Source: the human T2T-CHM13v2.0 reference genome, Homo sapiens. Taken from it: a stretch of 64,000 nt of DNA. This document shows, in pieces, positions 29,389-40,100 of the stretch. Location: assembly GCA_009914755.4 (NCBI GenBank), contig CP068257.2, positions 14,848,001 through 14,912,000 on the forward strand. The letters are read 5' to 3'. The translations under genes were made by a program, and so were the position numbers. Under the pieces are notes generated by a model, which was not told where the DNA came from, did not search any database, and saw only the letters and a program-made list of their open reading frames with translations. Every line of letters begins with the position of its first letter. The stretch's first letter is position 1.

Positions 29389-32112
29389 TTCTTATAGCCT
29401 TTTTTATTAATCTATTTTTTCCCAACTTCTTGGTCTAAATAAATCTGAATTTTTCAACTAGTTTGCCTCATGCAATTTTCTCCTCTATTGATTCTCAAGG
29501 CATGAATCATCAAAGCGGTCTTGTCAAAAGGAAACATTATTTTTTTACTAAAATTATGAAGAAATTGAAGCAAATGTGATTTCAAAGACCTAACTTTATC
29601 CAATTTTCTACTTTTTTCCAAGCTCTACATTTTCACAGTAAAACTTCTGTTTTATCTTTTAACAACATGATAAAGAAAAACACAGATGGAAGAACATTGA
29701 GGGGGAATTCCTAAATGGGAGCAGTTAGCAGCTATGAAAATGTAGATATTCAAGAAGAAAAGAAAAAGTAAGCAAAACTGAATCATGAGACCATAGAAGA
29801 GTCAAAAAAATGTCAATTTATCTCAGCTTTCTGCAAACTACAACCCATGGGCCAAATTCAAGGTCTGTTTTTGTACAATCTACACATTAAGAATGGTTTT
29901 TACAATGATACGTGTTAGAAAAATGTTTAGAAAGTCATATTTTATGATGTGAAAATTGATAAAATGTTGTTGTCCATAAATAAAGTTTTATTGGAACACC
30001 ATCACACTTTCATTTATGTATTTTCTATGACTGTTTTTATGCTGTAACAGCAGAATTAAGCAGTTGCGACAGAGATCATATGACATGCAGCATGTAAAAC
30101 ATGTATTATCTAGCCCTTCATAGAGAAGTTTGCTGTCTCCAGATTTAGAACATTCCCCTAAGTTAATTTTCCCAGCTGATTACATCACTGTTTATTGAGT
30201 ATCAGCTCTGGAATTTCAAGTTCAAATAAACCAAGGAGTACCTTCAGATTTTTTCATTAGAGTTTTTCTTTACAGTAACACAAGGTGGGAGCAAATAACC
30301 AGTAAGAGCAGTTACCTTCGTGTATCTGTCATTTTACAAAAAATTAACTGTTCATTTTGGGATAACTGTAGACTTATGCAGTTGTAAGAAATAAAACAGA
30401 GTTAGGTTAATCTTTATCCAGTTTCTCCAGTGCTAAAATCTTGAAAACTGTAGTACAATTGGAAAACAACGAAACAGTTGTACAAAACAGTACAACTGAA
30501 AACAATATTATAGCCCAGATGTTAACATTGATATAGACAAGATACAGAATGTTTCCATTACTATTAGAATCCCTTGTGTTGCCCTTCTATAGATACACCT
30601 GCTTCTCTCTCAATCCCATCTCTGCCTTCACTCCTTAGCAACTTACCTGTTTTCCATTTCTATAATTTTAACATTTCAGGAGTATGAAAATGTAATCACA
30701 GAATGTGATCTTTGGGGATTGGCCTTTTTCACTCAGCATAATTCTCTTGAAATCAACCACATTGCTGAGTTTATCAATAGTTTGCTTCTTATTGAGTAGT
30801 ATTCCAGGGTATGAATATACTACATTTTAACCACTCATCAGCTGAAATACATCAAGGTGGTTTCCAGTTTGGGGCTATTGTGAATAAAGCTTCATGTATA
30901 GATTTTTCATGTAAATAGAAATTTTTATTTTGGGGGAATACATTCCCATGAGTCAAATTGCTGGACCATATGTTAAGTGTTTGTTTCATTTTTAAAATAA
31001 TTTGGCAAACAATCCCCAGAGTGGCTGTATCATTTTACGCTTTTGTTAGTAATATATGAATGATCCAATATACTCACCTACATTTGGTGTTGCCACTACT
31101 GTTTTGTTTGTTTATGTTAGACCTTCTAACAGGTATGTGGTGATATCTCATTGTGGTTTTAATTTGCATTTCCCTAATGTGCTTGTTTGTCATCCATATA
31201 GCCTCTTGGGTAGAATGTGTCTTATATGTTTTGCCCATTTGCCATTTAGACTGTTTGATTTTTTGACTGTTGAGTTGTGAGAAGTCTTTATGTTTTCTAG
31301 ATACTGGTCCTTTTTCAGATAGATGGTTTGAAAAGATATTCTTCCAATCTGTGGCTTGTCTTTTCATTCTCTTAATGGAATTGTTGGGTAGGAAGTGTAA
31401 TTTCTCCTCGACGCTCATAAATTCATAGTTCAAACAGACTTCAGTAGCAAAAGACAAACAAGAGAAAAACAATCAAGTTTATTAATATGCACAGTGCCTA
31501 TCACTCGGGAGAAACTTCAATGAAAGGTAACACAAGGGAGTGGCTTAGAAATCTGGTTTATATAGAATCTTCGACAAACAACAATGTATTTTAGAGAAAT
31601 GACATGACAAAGAAAAGCAGTTTTAGGCTTCCAGAGGCAGGAAGCTGTGGGAAGTTAAATATATAGAAAAAAACTAATGGAGTAAGATTTGTTTGTAGAT
31701 TCCTCTGGTGCCATCTCTCAGCTGATAAGAGTTGTTTCCAGAAAGGATTTATACCTTCTCCTTACATGGAAAAGGGTGAGGATAGACAGAGCTCTTCCTT
31801 TGTTGGCTGTTTCGTGATTGCCTTTAGCTCAACAATATTTGTGTCACAGAGGCACATTTTGGGGTGACATCTCTGGTTTCCTTCAGAGTATTTTATGGAG
31901 CAAAAGTGTTTAATTTTGATGAATCAACTTACCAATTTTTCTTTATGTATAGTGATTTTGTTATGAATTCCAGTAACTCTTTGCCTAGTTCCAGGTCCTA
32001 AAGATCTTGTTTTGTTATTTTCTAAAAGTTTTATAGTTCAATGTTTTACATTTAGGCCTGTGATCCATTTTGAGTTAATTTGTATGTAAGATGTGTTATG
32101 TAGATCAAAATT

Positions 32113-32188
32113 CTCCCTCTCTTCCCCTTCACTCCCCTCCTCTCTTTATTTGTCTCTCTCTCTTCCTCTCTCTCTCTCTGTCTCTCCT
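32113..32188. repeat. Pyrimidine-rich (TC)n-like tract inside the L1
   Basis: ctctcttccccttcactcccctcctctctttatttgtctctctctcttcctctctctctctctgtctctcc. Confidence 0.7.
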
Positions 32189-32257
32189 GTGGCTGTCCAA
32201 TTGCTGTGACACCATTTGCTGAAATGACTATCTTTTTTCTATTGAATTGGTTTTGGG

Positions 32258-36860: not shown

Positions 36861-37181
36861 GGCCGGGAGCGGTGGCTCACCCCTGTAATCCCAGCACTTT
36901 GGGAGGCCAAGGCGGGGGGATCACGAGGTCAGGAGTTGGAGACCAGCCTGACCAACATGGTGAAACCCCGTCTCTACTAAAAATACAAAAATTAGCCAGG
37001 TGTAGTGGCATGCACCTGTAATCCCAGCTACTCAGGAGGCTGAGGCAGGAGTATTGCTTGAACCTGGGAGGCAGAGGTTGCAGTGAGCCGAGATTGCACC
37101 ACTGCGCTCCAGCCTGGGTGACAGTGAGACTCCATCTCAAAAATAAAAATAAAAATAAAAATAAAAAAATAAAAATAAATG
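36861..37181 (+). mobile_element. Alu SINE, full length, tail turned into an (AAAAT)n microsatellite, inserted into the L1
   Basis: ggccgggagcggtggctcacccctgtaatcccagcactttgggaggccaaggcgggggg...ccagcctgggtgacagtgagactccatctc then aaaataaaaataaaaataaaaataaaaaaataaaaataaat. Perfect 11-bp TSD gtgaacttgtc at 36850-36860 and 37185-37195. Confidence 0.95.
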
Positions 37182-40100
37182 AAGGTGAACTTGTCTGTTT
37201 CTCTTTTCTGTTTCATACTCTACATATTGAGCAGCTTTGTTTTGGTGCATACACATTCAGGGATGCTATGTCTTCTTGCTGGATTGTTTCTTTTATCATT
37301 GTGTGATGTCTACCTGTGTCTCTGGTAATTTTCTGTCCTTGGAAGTCTATTTTATTTGATATTATTAAAGACACTTCTGTTTTCTAATGTTTGACTAATA
37401 TGCTTACTTTAATCATTTTACTTTCAACCTGTTTATATTGTTATATTTAAATTTTCATTGTAGACAGCATATAATTGGGCCATGGTTTTTAAATCCACTG
37501 TGCAAATCTCTGCCATTTCATTGGTATATTCAAACAATTCACATTTACTTCAATAATTTATTTATATGATTTAAGCCTGCCATTTGAATAGTTCTTTTTT
37601 GTTTGTTCTTTCTGTTTTTTATTTCTCTGAGTTTTTTCTCCTGCCTTTTTGTGGTTTACTTAAACAAATTTTAACATTTTTAGAATTTTGACATATCTAG
37701 AATTTTTTTTTACTAAATTTCGTTATGTAATTTTTTAGTGGCTGCTTTATGTATTATGTTACATATACATAACTTATCACAGTCTACTAGTATCCTCATT
37801 TTACCATTTCAAGCAGTTAAAAAATCTTACCTACTTTTGTACCTTCACTCTTACCCATTTATAATATAATTAATTGTCTTAGATATTTCCTCCACATGCG
37901 TTTAGCACTATACCAGACAGTGCTCTATTTATGTTTCCACAATCAAACATAATTTAGAAAACTCCAGAAAAGGAAAGTCTGTTCTATTTATCCATATTTG
38001 TATGTACTGAATTCTTTCTTCCTTTCTAAACTTCCAAGATTCCCTCTTTTGTCTTTTCCATTCTGTGTGGACAACTTCCTTAGCCATTCTGTCAGGTTAG
38101 GCCTGCTAGTTGAAAATTATTCTAGTTTTCTTTATCTAACAATGTTTTCCTTTCCCCTTCATTTCTAAAGGATATTTTCTATGGATATAAAACTCTAGGT
38201 TGATAGTTCTTTGCTTTCAGCAAGTGAAACGGTCATGTCCTTTCCTTTTGGCTCCCATGGTTTCTGATGGGAAACCCACTGTCTGAATCATTTTTCCTCT
38301 ATAGATAAGACTGTGTTTTTTCCTGCTCTTTTCAGATTTTTTCTTTAAGTTTTTGTAAGTTTGACTATGATATGCTTTGGTATAAATTTCTTTGGTTTTA
38401 TTCTGTTTGCGGTTTGCTCAGCTTCTTGAATCTGTGTCCTTTTTGCTATATTTTGGAAGTTTCCAGCCACTATAGCCACTATTTCTTTGAGGATATTTTA
38501 AGCATTGCCCTTTTTCTCCTCTCTTTCTGGGATTCTAGTGACACAGATACAAATGTTTTATTTTTTGTTATAGTTTCACAGTTGCCTAAGTCTCTGTTTT
38601 TAAGTATAGTTTATTTCTGTTGTTCAGATTAAGTTATTTCCATTATTCTTTCTTCCAGTTCACTGATTCTTTCTTCTGCCTTCTCCACTCTGCTGTCAAG
38701 TACATCCTCTTAGTTTTTGATAATTTCAATTATTTTATTTTTCTGTTCTAAAATTTTATCTGATTATTCTTTGTATCTTCTATTTCTTTGTCAAAACTTT
38801 TACCTTTTTCGTTTGTTTCCACTATGCTTATAATTGCCTCTTGGAGCATTTTCATGACAGCTGCTTTAAAATCTTTGTCAGATAATTCTAACATCTCTGT
38901 CATCTCAATGTTCACATGTATCAATAGCCTTGTAAAAATTCAGTTTGAGATCTTCTTTCTGTTTTGGGTGACAAATGATTTTCGGTTGAAACCTGGACAT
39001 CTTAGGTATTAGGTATGAGGTTCTAATTCTTATTTAAACCTTCTGTTTTATCTGGCTTCTTCTTACACCACGCCGGCCGGGAAAAGGGAGCATGCCGCCT
39101 TGTTACTGCCAGATATGGATAGAAGTAGCTCCTGCTCTTCAATGAACCTCCGTTGGTTTCTGCTACCAAACTGACCTCCACTGATATCTTCCTGGCAAGA
39201 AAAAATGGAGTAGTTTGTTGCTGCTCTTATTGTGGTCTTCACCAGTGCTTTAGAAGTTGAGGGATAGCATGGTAGCCTCATTACAGCTGGACAGTTTCAA
39301 ATGTTCTCAATCTCCACCAAACCTCCTCTCATACTACCTCAGTGGAGAGGGAGATGGATACCTCATTATTGTTGAGTTTGGGGTGGAAGTCTAGACTGCC
39401 CATTTAGTCAACATAGACACTGCATGTAGGGTAAGAGAAGAATCTTGCTAACCCCCGGCAGGGATGAAACTCCTAGATTCCTGCTCAGACTTCTTTTACA
39501 CTACTCTGGGTGCTGGAAGGAGAGGGTGTTGGAATACCCTGGCAAGGATCAGCGTCTGGGCTTGCCACTTTGCCTTTGCAGGTGTACATGGGGATGGGAC
39601 CATAATTCTTTTTGTGGTGTTCAACGAGAGCAAAATGATATTGCTTTCTGTCTTTCTAGGCTGCCCCTTTCTTGTTCCTTTGACTAGAGAGAACAGCCTT
39701 TCGTTGGAACTTGGTTTTTTTGTCTGAACCAGTTGGCATTTCTGGGTTGCAGGCTTCTTCAGCTCTGAGGTTTTGATGTATAAGGTAAAAATTTTAAATC
39801 CATGTCATTCCTTGAGTCCTTCAGTCTCTAGCTAGTTTTTCATCTTCTCTCAGCTTTTCAGAGTCTCTTTAAATTTCTTTGATATGTAATGTGGAGAGAT
39901 TTTAGTTGTACCTAGAAGGGGAATTAGAAAAAACTACGTCTACTCCATCTTTCTACAAGTGAAAGTCTCCCATTACTTTGCTTCTTTTTAAAAATTGTTT
40001 TTAATTGGGAAGACAGCATACAATTTTCACATCAGATTCTTTCAGGAAGTTCAACAGAATTATACAAAACTAACCATGAATTTAGTATTAAAAAGGAAAC

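What the first reader, a model, noticed from the sequence alone, without database searches (positions are those of the whole stretch)
30700..39800. Nested 'Russian-doll' transposon stack: ancient L1 <- Hsmar1 <- AluY, plus four further Alus and an unknown insert
A nearly full-length ancient L1 (about 5.8 kb of L1-derived sequence, minus strand) can be followed collinearly across seven interruptions. These are an unidentified ~0.5 kb insert (31.40-31.90 kb), a (TC)n tract, an Alu with a short TSD (32.26 kb), a near-complete Hsmar1 mariner at a TA (33.44-35.0 kb) that itself carries an AluY with a perfect 13-bp TSD, an Alu (35.21 kb), an old AluJ-like element (35.61 kb) and an Alu with a perfect 11-bp TSD (36.86 kb). 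The layering gives a relative chronology: L1M oldest, then Hsmar1 and the AluJ-like copy, then AluS/Y. The Alus at 35210(+) and 35611(-) are an inverted pair only ~90 bp apart, and 34640(-) is a third within 300 bp. If this lies in a transcribed intron, such pairs are classic dsRNA/A-to-I editing substrates and can nucleate exonization or rearrangement.
Basis: partly seen in the sequence, partly recalled or inferred. Interest (0 to 1): 0.5.

Follow-up and report, generated by a model that had tools for sequence, protein, structure and literature searches.

The report
Nested dead transposons in MIR99AHG intron
This is an ordinary stretch of primate "junk" DNA: one very old, dead L1 element that was later interrupted by a mariner transposon, five Alus and a probable solo LTR, about 7-16 kb upstream of the miR-99a/let-7c microRNA genes.

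Summary
One ancient L1 lies on the minus strand. Its fragments map in strictly descending order onto PDB-validated human ORF2p (residues 1233 to 10) and then ORF1p (306 to 107) across every claimed interruption. All five Alus are at the stated positions and strands. The 13-bp and 11-bp TSDs are exact and non-random. The mariner is a near-complete Hsmar1 (1,234 bp of its own sequence) flanked by TA, and it carries an Alu.

Corrections:
- The L1 starts left of 30700. The ORF2 stop is expected near 30667, and 3'UTR-like sequence reads to about 30335.
- Its 5' side beyond 38700 is unverified.
- The L1 also has a ~0.3 kb internal deletion and a ~66 bp AT-rich filler.
- The "AluY" is an S/Y intermediate.
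- The "unknown insert" is a discrete 504-bp TG...CA unit (31382-31885), most likely a solo LTR on the minus strand. Its family cannot be named with these tools.
- The central Alu pairs best with the Alu inside the mariner, not with the nearer AluJ.

The window holds exact miR-99a and let-7c, so the stack lies in the MIR99AHG intron, antisense to it. Nothing is novel. RepeatMasker would annotate all of it.

The parts
30335..30792 (-). Presumed L1 ORF2 C-terminal end and 3'UTR, lying left of the finding's start
   Evidence: ORF2p residue 1233 maps to 30793, so the stop codon (residue 1275) is expected near 30667. Sequence down to about 30335 reads like an L1M 3'UTR by my recollection only. No in-window paralogue was found, and no poly(A) tail or TSD was identified.
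30793..31381 (-). L1 fragment, ORF2p residues 1028-1233
   Evidence: tblastn with ORF2p validated against PDB chain 8uw3_A: 30825-31370 = residues 1028-1221, E=7e-16.
31382..31885 (-). The 'unknown insert': a discrete 504-bp TG...CA unit, probably a solo LTR
   Evidence: ORF2p 1028 and 1023 flank it. Excising 31382-31889 gives a gap-free alignment to two other L1 copies and the best score of four alternatives. TATAAA, TATATAAA and AATAAA occur on the minus strand only, in U3-R-U5-like order. It has no terminal inverted repeats and no Rfam hit. The possible 4-bp TSD is GAAT (31378-81) / GAGT (31886-89), matching at 3 of 4 positions, and is not significant.
31886..32255 (-). L1 fragment, ORF2p residues 928-1023, containing an expanded (TC)n tract at 32140-32186
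   Evidence: tblastn 31891-32235; TRF. The HSP is about 57 bp longer than the protein span, which matches the tract.
32256..32542 (+). AluS, with 8-bp TSD TGGTTTTG (32248-55 / 32543-50)
   Evidence: It has 9 of 11 Sx-state diagnostic positions and 11.0% divergence from AluSx.
32551..33442 (-). L1 fragment, ORF2p residues 559-659 and about 804-918. It carries a ~66-bp AT-rich filler (~32700-32775) and a ~0.3 kb deletion of ORF2p ~660-803 (~32991-33128)
   Evidence: tblastn alignments; a DNA match of 33144-33303 to the L1 copy at 23382-23537; TRF AT-rich repeat at 32701-32735.
33443..35002 (-). Hsmar1 mariner, 1,234 bp of its own sequence plus the nested Alu, flanked by TA (33441-2 / 35003-4)
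   Evidence: SETMAR transposase domain residues 1-341 are all covered. PDB SETMAR chain 3f2k scores 415 bits against 166 for Mos1. Pfam Transposase_1 hits at E=6e-20. The left terminus matches at 17 of 18 positions; the right terminus is degenerate.
34640..34952 (-). Alu nested in the Hsmar1 (S/Y intermediate), with an exact 13-bp TSD (34627-39 / 34953-65)
   Evidence: Diagnostic positions: 6 Y-state and 4 Sx-state.
35005..35209 (-). L1 fragment, ORF2p residues about 484-557
   Evidence: 35010-35069 = residues 538-557, 70% identity, E=8e-5; 35069-35161 = residues 500-530, weak.
35210..35519 (+). AluS with a 26-nt A tail and 9-bp TSD CTTTCAATA (35199-207 / 35520-28)
35529..35610 (-). Short L1 spacer between the two Alus (expected ORF2p ~457-483)
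   Evidence: Arithmetic only. 169 L1 bases are available between anchors at residues 500 and 452, against 144 expected. There is no direct hit.
35611..35916 (-). AluJ, with no recognisable TSD
   Evidence: It has 17 of 23 Jo-state diagnostic positions and 17.7% divergence.
35917..36860 (-). L1 fragment, ORF2p residues 137-452
   Evidence: tblastn 35956-36789 = residues 162-452 (E=1e-18); 36681-36860 = residues 137-197.
36861..37184 (+). AluS with an (AAAAT)n tail and an exact 11-bp TSD (36850-60 / 37185-95)
   Evidence: Non-CpG divergence from AluSx is 1.7%.
37196..38700 (-). L1 fragment: ORF2p residues 10-117, the inter-ORF region, and ORF1p residues 107-306
   Evidence: tblastn. Pfam Transposase_22 (30.1 bits, cut-off 22.4) and Tnp_22_dsRBD (41.9 bits, cut-off 22.2). 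ORF1p numbering was validated against 2yko_A.
38701..39990 (-). Presumed L1 ORF1 N-terminus and 5'UTR; unverified
   Evidence: The T-rich antisense-like composition continues and an 'MLELSDKDFK'-type motif sits at about 38894 (reading). There is no protein, Pfam or paralogue support. The 5' end cannot be placed.

Best explanation
The region is a passive fossil record of successive transposon insertions into one ancient L1 (L1M-type). The L1 lies antisense in the MIR99AHG intron.

Inferred history:
1. A near full-length L1 inserted by target-primed reverse transcription. It then decayed: about 30-45% amino-acid identity to L1HS ORF2p remains, no ORF exceeds 141 aa, and it has a ~0.3 kb internal deletion.
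2. It was later hit by a 504-bp TG...CA element (probably an ERV reduced to a solo LTR), an AluJ, and an Hsmar1. The Hsmar1 arrived by cut-and-paste at a TA, during the roughly 50-My-old burst of that family.
3. Four AluS-type copies followed by L1-mediated retroposition, one of them landing inside the Hsmar1.
4. Two low-complexity tracts, (TC)n and an AT-rich filler, grew in place.

No element retains coding capacity. The Hsmar1 ends no longer meet the published SETMAR-binding criterion.

The only plausible present-day activity is structural. In the + strand host pre-RNA, the inverted Alus are predicted to form a ~265-bp duplex of the kind ADAR enzymes edit.

Shown: element identities, order, junctions, TSDs and predicted duplex. 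Inferred: insertion mechanisms, absolute ages and any editing.
For: - ORF2p numbering was validated against 8uw3_A and ORF1p numbering against 2yko_A.
- Minus-strand anchors are monotonic: 30793-31370 = ORF2p 1233-1028; 31891-32235 = 1023-928; 32601-32990 = 906-804; 33129-33443 = 659-559; 35010-35069 = 557-538; 35956-36789 = 452-162; 36681-36860 = 197-137; 37243-37557 = 117-10. ORF1p then follows: 38113-38229 = 306-268 and 38351-38700 = 223-107.
- Pfam finds the L1 ORF1 domains and mariner Transposase_1.
- SETMAR is the best PDB match for the mariner, 415 bits.
- The Alus and their TSDs are confirmed.
- The excision test defines the insert.
- No long ORFs survive.
- The ITR cores have 4 and 10 mismatches, against the limit of 3 used in PMC8327481.
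- The Alu(-)34640 x Alu(+)35210 duplex is predicted at -441 kcal/mol with 265 pairs in the MFE fold; z = -27.5 against shuffles.
- miR-99a and let-7c mature sequences are exact, and the cluster is reported as intronic and co-transcribed (PMC4118279).
- Hsmar1 age and copy number come from PMC9062482 and PMC6326780.
Against: - No repeat library (Dfam or Repbase) was available. The L1 subfamily, the LTR family and the L1 untranslated ends are therefore not named or bounded by a tool.
- The segment 35529-35610 and the region 38701-39990 have no direct L1 anchor.
- No TSD or poly(A) tail was found for the L1 or the AluJ.
- The insert's 4-bp TSD is imperfect and not statistically significant.
- Transcription through this exact stretch, and editing of it, were not observed here.
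Confidence: 0.92

Rival explanations
1. The L1-like pieces are several independent L1 insertions that happen to lie next to each other, not one disrupted element.
For: The window is L1-rich. Other L1 pieces lie at 5.2-6.3, 19.0-19.6, 21.5-23.5, 26.1 and 52.0 kb. About 144 ORF2p residues (660-803) are missing between two of the fragments.
Against: All fragments share one strand. Their ORF2p/ORF1p coordinates descend without overlap. At each junction the coordinates abut to within 1-19 residues (for example 559|557 across the mariner and 1028|1023 across the insert). The extra DNA at each junction equals the inserted element. All pieces show a similarly low identity to L1HS (about 30-45%), unlike the other L1s in the window (50-97%).
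Confidence: 0.04
2. The 0.5 kb insert (31382-31885) is not an LTR. It would instead be a fragment of a non-LTR element lacking a tail (for example an L2/CR1-type 3' end), an unclassified interspersed repeat, or filler DNA captured during double-strand break repair.
For: No paralogue was found in the window. The TSD is not significant. The TATA and AATAAA motifs are each expected about once by chance in 515 bp of 38% GC DNA (my estimate). No family could be named.
Against: It is a clean, discrete insertion whose removal restores L1 spacing. The termini are TG...CA. All promoter and poly(A) motifs lie on one strand in the order TATAAA, then 79 bp, then AATAAA, then about 100 bp to the end, which is an LTR-like U3-R-U5 layout. 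It has no A or T tail, no terminal inverted repeats, no L1 ORF similarity and no RNA-family hit.
Confidence: 0.35
3. The inverted Alu cluster has a present-day regulatory function in the MIR99AHG/pri-miR-99a~let-7c transcript, such as editing-dependent retention, back-splicing or exonization, and is not just a neutral fossil.
For: A very stable duplex is predicted on the host-sense strand. The location is inside a co-transcribed host intron 11 kb upstream of the miRNAs (PMC4118279). ADAR1-p110 overexpression was reported to lower MIR99AHG levels (PMC5333057), although that paper does not tie the effect to these Alus.
Against: Inverted Alu pairs are extremely common in human introns. This window alone has about 21 Alu hits in 64 kb. 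No conservation, editing or splicing data were available. The literature search for MIR99AHG + Alu + editing found nothing specific to this site.
Confidence: 0.04

Closest known systems
Ancient mammalian LINE-1 (L1M-type) fragmented by younger repeats, as routinely joined by RepeatMasker
   Same: It has ORF1 RBD and dsRBD domains, and ORF2 endonuclease, RT and C-terminal segments in canonical order on one strand. It is heavily decayed, and it is antisense to the host gene, as is typical of intronic L1s (the last point is from general knowledge).
   Different: Nothing unusual. The subfamily was not determined here. It has a ~0.3 kb internal deletion that removes the RT active-site region, and its ends are undefined.
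Hsmar1 mariner (the family that gave rise to the SETMAR transposase domain; about 260 full-length copies, PMC6326780)
   Same: It has TA target duplication, 1,234 of about 1,287 bp, the full transposase reading frame recognisable, and SETMAR as its closest solved relative. In the catalytic domain the identity to my typed SETMAR sequence is 78% by tblastn.
   Different: It has multiple frameshifts and stops. The left ITR core has 4 mismatches and the right has 10, so it falls outside the published SETMAR-bound class (3 mismatches or fewer). It also carries a nested Alu.
Alu SINEs (AluJ, AluS, S/Y-transition subfamilies)
   Same: They are dimeric and 7SL-derived, with A-rich tails and 8-13 bp TSDs. 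Divergence ranks follow the known J > S > Y age order.
   Different: The copy labelled AluY carries a mixed diagnostic pattern (6 Y-state, 4 Sx-state), so it is better described as an S/Y-transition type such as AluSc or AluSg.
Solo LTR of an endogenous retrovirus (ERV1-like 4-bp TSD class)
   Same: It has TG...CA termini, a length of about 500 bp, a TATA box and AATAAA on one strand in U3-R-U5 order, and a candidate 4-bp target duplication.
   Different: No family match could be obtained. The TSD is imperfect (3 of 4). Membership is therefore only probable.
Intronic inverted-repeat Alu (IRAlu) dsRNA substrates of ADAR
   Same: Oppositely oriented Alus lie within 91-257 bp of each other in a transcribed intron, and a long near-perfect duplex is predicted.
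   Different: No editing evidence was examined. The energetically preferred pair is 34640(-)/35210(+), not the closest pair.

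Membership tests
LINE-1 | ORF1 with L1-specific RBD and C-terminal dsRBD-like domains | tested here: met
   Pfam Transposase_22 scores 30.1 bits (cut-off 22.4) and Tnp_22_dsRBD 41.9 bits (cut-off 22.2). 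tblastn places ORF1p residues 107-306.
LINE-1 | ORF2 endonuclease, RT and C-terminal segments collinear on one strand | tested here: met
   ORF2p residues 10-1233 map in monotonic order on the minus strand. The Pfam RVT_1 and Exo_endo_phos models themselves did not reach E<0.01 on the fragmented translations.
LINE-1 | 3' poly(A) tail and flanking TSD | tested here: inconclusive
   No T-run was found at the presumed 3' end near 30335, and no significant flank match. This is expected for a very old copy.
Hsmar1 (mariner, cecropia subfamily) | TA target-site duplication | tested here: met
   TA at 33441-2 and 35003-4. L1 ORF2p residues 559 and 557 abut the element.
Hsmar1 (mariner, cecropia subfamily) | Transposase closest to the Hsmar1-derived SETMAR domain | tested here: met
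   SETMAR chain 3f2k scores 415 bits against 166 bits for Mos1. Pfam Transposase_1 hits.
Hsmar1 (mariner, cecropia subfamily) | Canonical ~30-bp terminal inverted repeats | tested here: inconclusive
   The left end matches at 17 of 18 positions but has 4 mismatches in the 19-nt core. The right end has 10 mismatches.
Alu | Dimeric 7SL-derived body of about 280 bp with an A-rich tail | tested here: met
   Each copy gives two Metazoa_SRP sub-threshold hits. Identity to Alu consensus is 82-90%. Tails are confirmed by TRF.
Alu | Flanking TSD from L1-mediated retroposition | tested here: met
   TSDs of 13, 11, 9 and 8 bp for four of the five copies. None was found for the AluJ.
AluY subfamily (for the copy at 34640-34952) | Y-state at the positions that distinguish AluY from AluS | tested here: inconclusive
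   6 Y-state, 4 Sx-state and 1 other out of 11 positions. Non-CpG divergence is 3.9% from AluY and 4.7% from AluSx.
Solo LTR (ERV) | TG...CA termini with a short (4-6 bp) TSD | tested here: inconclusive
   TG at 31382 and CA at 31885. The flanks are GAAT and GAGT (3 of 4 match). The excision test favours these edges, but the flank similarity is not significant.
Solo LTR (ERV) | U3-R-U5 signals (TATA box upstream of a poly(A) signal) on one strand | tested here: met
   On the minus strand, TATATAAA is at insert position 331 and AATAAA at position 412 of 515. None occurs on the plus strand. This is weak evidence, because such hexamers are common in AT-rich DNA.
Solo LTR (ERV) | Membership of a repeated family with the same termini | not testable with these tools
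   There is no repeat library. No paralogue was found in the window.
ADAR-edited inverted-repeat Alu pair | Long intramolecular dsRNA in a transcribed region | tested here: met
   The MFE fold gives 265 inter-Alu pairs at -441 kcal/mol, z = -27.5. The host intron context comes and PMC4118279.
ADAR-edited inverted-repeat Alu pair | Observed A-to-I (A-to-G) clusters in RNA | not testable with these tools
   No RNA-seq or editing database was available. The literature search found nothing site-specific.

The most novel reading that the evidence does not exclude
The three closely spaced, oppositely oriented Alus at 34.6-35.9 kb form an ADAR-edited hairpin in the MIR99AHG primary transcript. [quoted passage not shown]
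Probability: 0.03. Interest if true: 0.45.

Novelty: already known. Interest (0 to 1): 0.08.

Why it matters
It matters little. Nested repeat stacks like this make up a large share of primate introns, and standard repeat annotation already captures them.

The modest value is as a clean worked example of insertion chronology: the L1 is older than the Hsmar1, which is older than its Alu. It also supplies locus context. The stack sits antisense in the MIR99AHG intron 7-16 kb upstream of miR-99a/let-7c, and it contains a strong predicted Alu-Alu duplex. That duplex could be kept in mind when interpreting RNA-editing, circRNA or structural-variant calls at this cancer-relevant locus.

Tried and rejected
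I replaced this with PDB validation of typed ORF2p and ORF1p, followed by local tblastn.
- Pfam on the fragmented ORF2 translations found no RVT_1, Exo_endo_phos or DUF1725 at E<0.01. The ORF2 evidence therefore rests on tblastn.
- A relaxed blastn of the insert, the L1 3' side, the L1 5' side and the AT-rich filler against the rest of the window found no paralogues, apart from one RT-region match.
- MAFFT of the unexcised locus against other L1 copies misplaced the insert edges. The explicit excision comparison replaced it.
- The perfect 5-bp ATGGA repeat (31375-79 / 31895-99) was considered as the insert's TSD and rejected. Excision at those edges fits the reference L1s worse (22 against 40).
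- A ~20-bp 'long duplication' model for the insert was also rejected (score 30; flank similarity not significant).
- A TSD search for the L1 itself found nothing above chance.
- A DNA-transposon reading of the insert was rejected because it has no terminal inverted repeats.
- An exact-word search cannot retrieve ~25-30% diverged paralogues of an old repeat, and would at best re-find this same locus.

Full report
**What is there.** The region is primate genomic DNA.
- 32256/62-32542 (+)
- 34640-34952 (-)
- 35210-35519 (+)
- 35611-35916 (-)
- 36861-37184 (+)

They were confirmed independently by Rfam: every copy gives two sub-gathering Metazoa_SRP hits, one per monomer, on the assigned strand. 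TRF finds their A or T tails and the (TC)n tract at 32140-32186.

**Target-site duplications.**
- The Alu inside the mariner is flanked by an exact 13-bp repeat, AAGAATGTATTTC (34627-39 / 34953-65). None of 2000 flank shuffles reaches that length.
- The 36861 Alu has an exact 11-bp repeat, GTGAACTTGTC (5 of 2000 shuffles).
- The 32256 Alu has 8 bp, TGGTTTTG, at exactly the expected positions.
- The AluJ has no recognisable TSD.

**The mariner.** The element spans 33443-35002 on the minus strand and is flanked by TA on both sides. After removing the nested Alu and its TSD, 1,234 bp remain. The whole transposase domain is recognisable, with frameshifts and stops. Its translation hits the Hsmar1-derived SETMAR chains far better than Mos1 (415 against 166 bits) and hits Pfam Transposase_1.

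The left terminus matches the canonical end at 17 of 18 positions. However, the 19-nt SETMAR-binding core (GGTGCAAAAGTAATTGCGG, PMC8327481) has 4 mismatches at the left end and 10 at the right. This copy therefore falls outside the published bound class of 3 mismatches or fewer. The literature gives about 260 full-length Hsmar1 copies in the genome (PMC6326780) and puts the family's entry into primates at about 50 My ago (PMC9062482).

**The key test: one L1 or several.** ORF2p aligns 1-1275 to chain 8uw3_A at near-identity. ORF1p aligns to 2yko_A with matching numbering. tblastn then gives these anchors, all on the minus strand:

| Window coordinates | Protein residues |
|---|---|
| 30793-31370 | ORF2p 1233-1028 |
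| 31891-32235 | ORF2p 1023-928 |
| 32601-32990 | ORF2p 906-804 |
| 33129-33443 | ORF2p 659-559 |
| 35010-35069 | ORF2p 557-538 |
| 35956-36789 | ORF2p 452-162 |
| 36681-36860 | ORF2p 197-137 |
| 37243-37557 | ORF2p 117-10 |
| 38113-38229 | ORF1p 306-268 |
| 38351-38700 | ORF1p 223-107 |

The order is strictly monotonic and non-overlapping. At every interruption the protein coordinates abut, for example 1028|1023, 559|557 and 137|117. The DNA excess at each interruption equals the size of the inserted element plus its TSD. Pfam independently finds both L1 ORF1 domains above their curated cut-offs.

Its identity to L1HS ORF2p is only about 30-45%, against 50-97% for the other L1 pieces in the window. 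That fits an old L1M-type element. No ORF longer than 141 aa survives.

**Corrections to the L1 description.**
- ORF2p residue 1233 lies at 30793, so the stop codon is expected near 30667. L1s are normally 3'-complete, so the 3'UTR must extend further left. By eye the sequence reads like an L1M 3' end down to about 30335 (this is my recollection, not a test). The finding's start at 30700 is too far right.
- Beyond 38700 there is no protein, Pfam or paralogue support.
- ORF2p residues ~660-803, which include the RT active-site region, are missing. Only 138 bp (32991-33128) lie between the flanking anchors, so about 0.3 kb has been deleted.
- A ~66-bp AT-rich filler interrupts ORF2p near residue 867, at about 32700-32775. 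This makes an eighth, minor interruption (TRF).

**The unknown insert.** ORF2p residues 1028 and 1023 flank it, so it is a true insertion.
- It has no terminal inverted repeats, no RNA-family hit, no L1 ORF similarity, no A or T tail, and no paralogue in the window.
- I used two other L1 copies in the window as empty-site references. Excising 31382-31889 (a TG...CA unit of 504 bp plus 4 bp) restores a gap-free alignment across the junction. It scores 40, against 30, 22 and 11 for three alternative edge models. One of those alternatives is the eye-catching perfect ATGGA repeat.
- TATAAA, TATATAAA and AATAAA occur only on the minus strand, with AATAAA 79 bp downstream of the TATA box and about 100 bp from the end.
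- The candidate 4-bp TSD is GAAT/GAGT. The flank similarity is not statistically significant.

The best reading is a solo LTR on the minus strand, of the ERV1-like 4-bp TSD class, with confidence about 0.6. Its family cannot be named without a repeat library.

**Alu subfamilies and chronology.** By diagnostic positions:
- 35611 is AluJ (17 of 23 J-states; 17.7% divergence, 10.5% at non-CpG sites).
- 32256, 35210 and 36861 are AluS.
- The copy in the mariner is mixed (6 Y-states, 4 Sx-states), so 'AluY' is only approximately right.

Nesting proves that the L1 is older than all its inserts and that the Hsmar1 is older than its Alu. The rest of the order is inferred from divergence. It agrees with the accepted order in which AluJ is older than AluS, which is older than AluY.

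**Genomic context.** Rfam at gathering threshold finds only two RNAs in the window: a mir-10-family hairpin at 46514-46585 and a let-7 hairpin at 47252-47327, both on the + strand. Their mature arms are exactly miR-99a-5p and let-7c-5p. This identifies the chr21 MIR99AHG locus of human or a close relative. PMC4118279 states that the cluster lies in an intron of MIR99AHG and is co-transcribed with it. The stack therefore lies 7-16 kb upstream of the miRNAs, antisense to the host gene.

**Predicted dsRNA.** I folded the + strand RNA of 34600-35960.
- The central Alu(+) at 35210 pairs with the upstream Alu(-) inside the mariner: 265 pairs, duplex energy -441 kcal/mol.
- It does not pair with the closer AluJ (-332 kcal/mol).
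- Both pairings are far beyond the shuffled controls (z = -27.5 and -21.9).

The dsRNA premise is therefore sound in silico. Editing, exonization and rearrangement could not be tested, and a literature search found nothing specific to this site.

**Verdict.** This is a textbook nested-repeat stack of known element classes in a reference-genome intron. It is already captured by standard annotation and is not novel.

Noticed in passing
window 46514-46585 (+) and 47252-47327 (+): A mir-10-family hairpin and a let-7 hairpin lie 738 bp apart. Their mature arms are exact miR-99a-5p (AACCCGTAGATCCGATCTTGTG) and let-7c-5p (TGAGGTAGTAGGTTGTATGGTT). This places the window at the MIR99AHG locus (human chr21 type).
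   Followed up: yes
window 5190-6286: This L1 3' fragment has a textbook twin-priming inversion. ORF2p residues 1092 down to 905 are inverted (5190-5764) and directly abut residues 1093-1271 in direct orientation (5765-6286). The inverted and direct segments meet at consecutive consensus positions.
   Followed up: partly
window 52027-52338 (-): A young L1 fragment whose translation is 97% identical to L1HS ORF2p residues 1172-1275. It is by far the youngest L1 piece in the window.
   Followed up: no
   Followed up: yes
window 28315-28654: An AluY-like copy (93% to AluY, 9 of 11 Y-states) on the minus strand with a 10-bp TSD, CTATTTGTGT. A (GT)n microsatellite of about 40 bp (28320-28358) sits between the left TSD copy and the Alu's T-tail, apparently grown from the TSD/tail junction.
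   Followed up: no
window 34760-34811 (-), 35344-35395 (+), 35412-35471 (-) and others: Sub-threshold Rfam hits to mir-1268, mir-3135 and mir-1285 fall inside the Alus. These are Alu-derived miRNA families, so the hits simply re-detect Alu sequence and are not evidence of miRNA genes.
   Followed up: partly
window 41150-42300: A stretch without Alu or L1 ORF hits that is relatively GC-rich (about 40-46%), roughly 4-5 kb upstream of miR-99a. It could be unique regulatory sequence for the cluster. It was not examined.
   Followed up: no
window 18958-19620, 21525-23537, 26056-26250 (all -): Further L1 ORF2 fragments of intermediate age (about 45-59% identity to L1HS ORF2p) lie upstream of the finding. 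Whether they belong to one or several elements was not examined.
   Followed up: no
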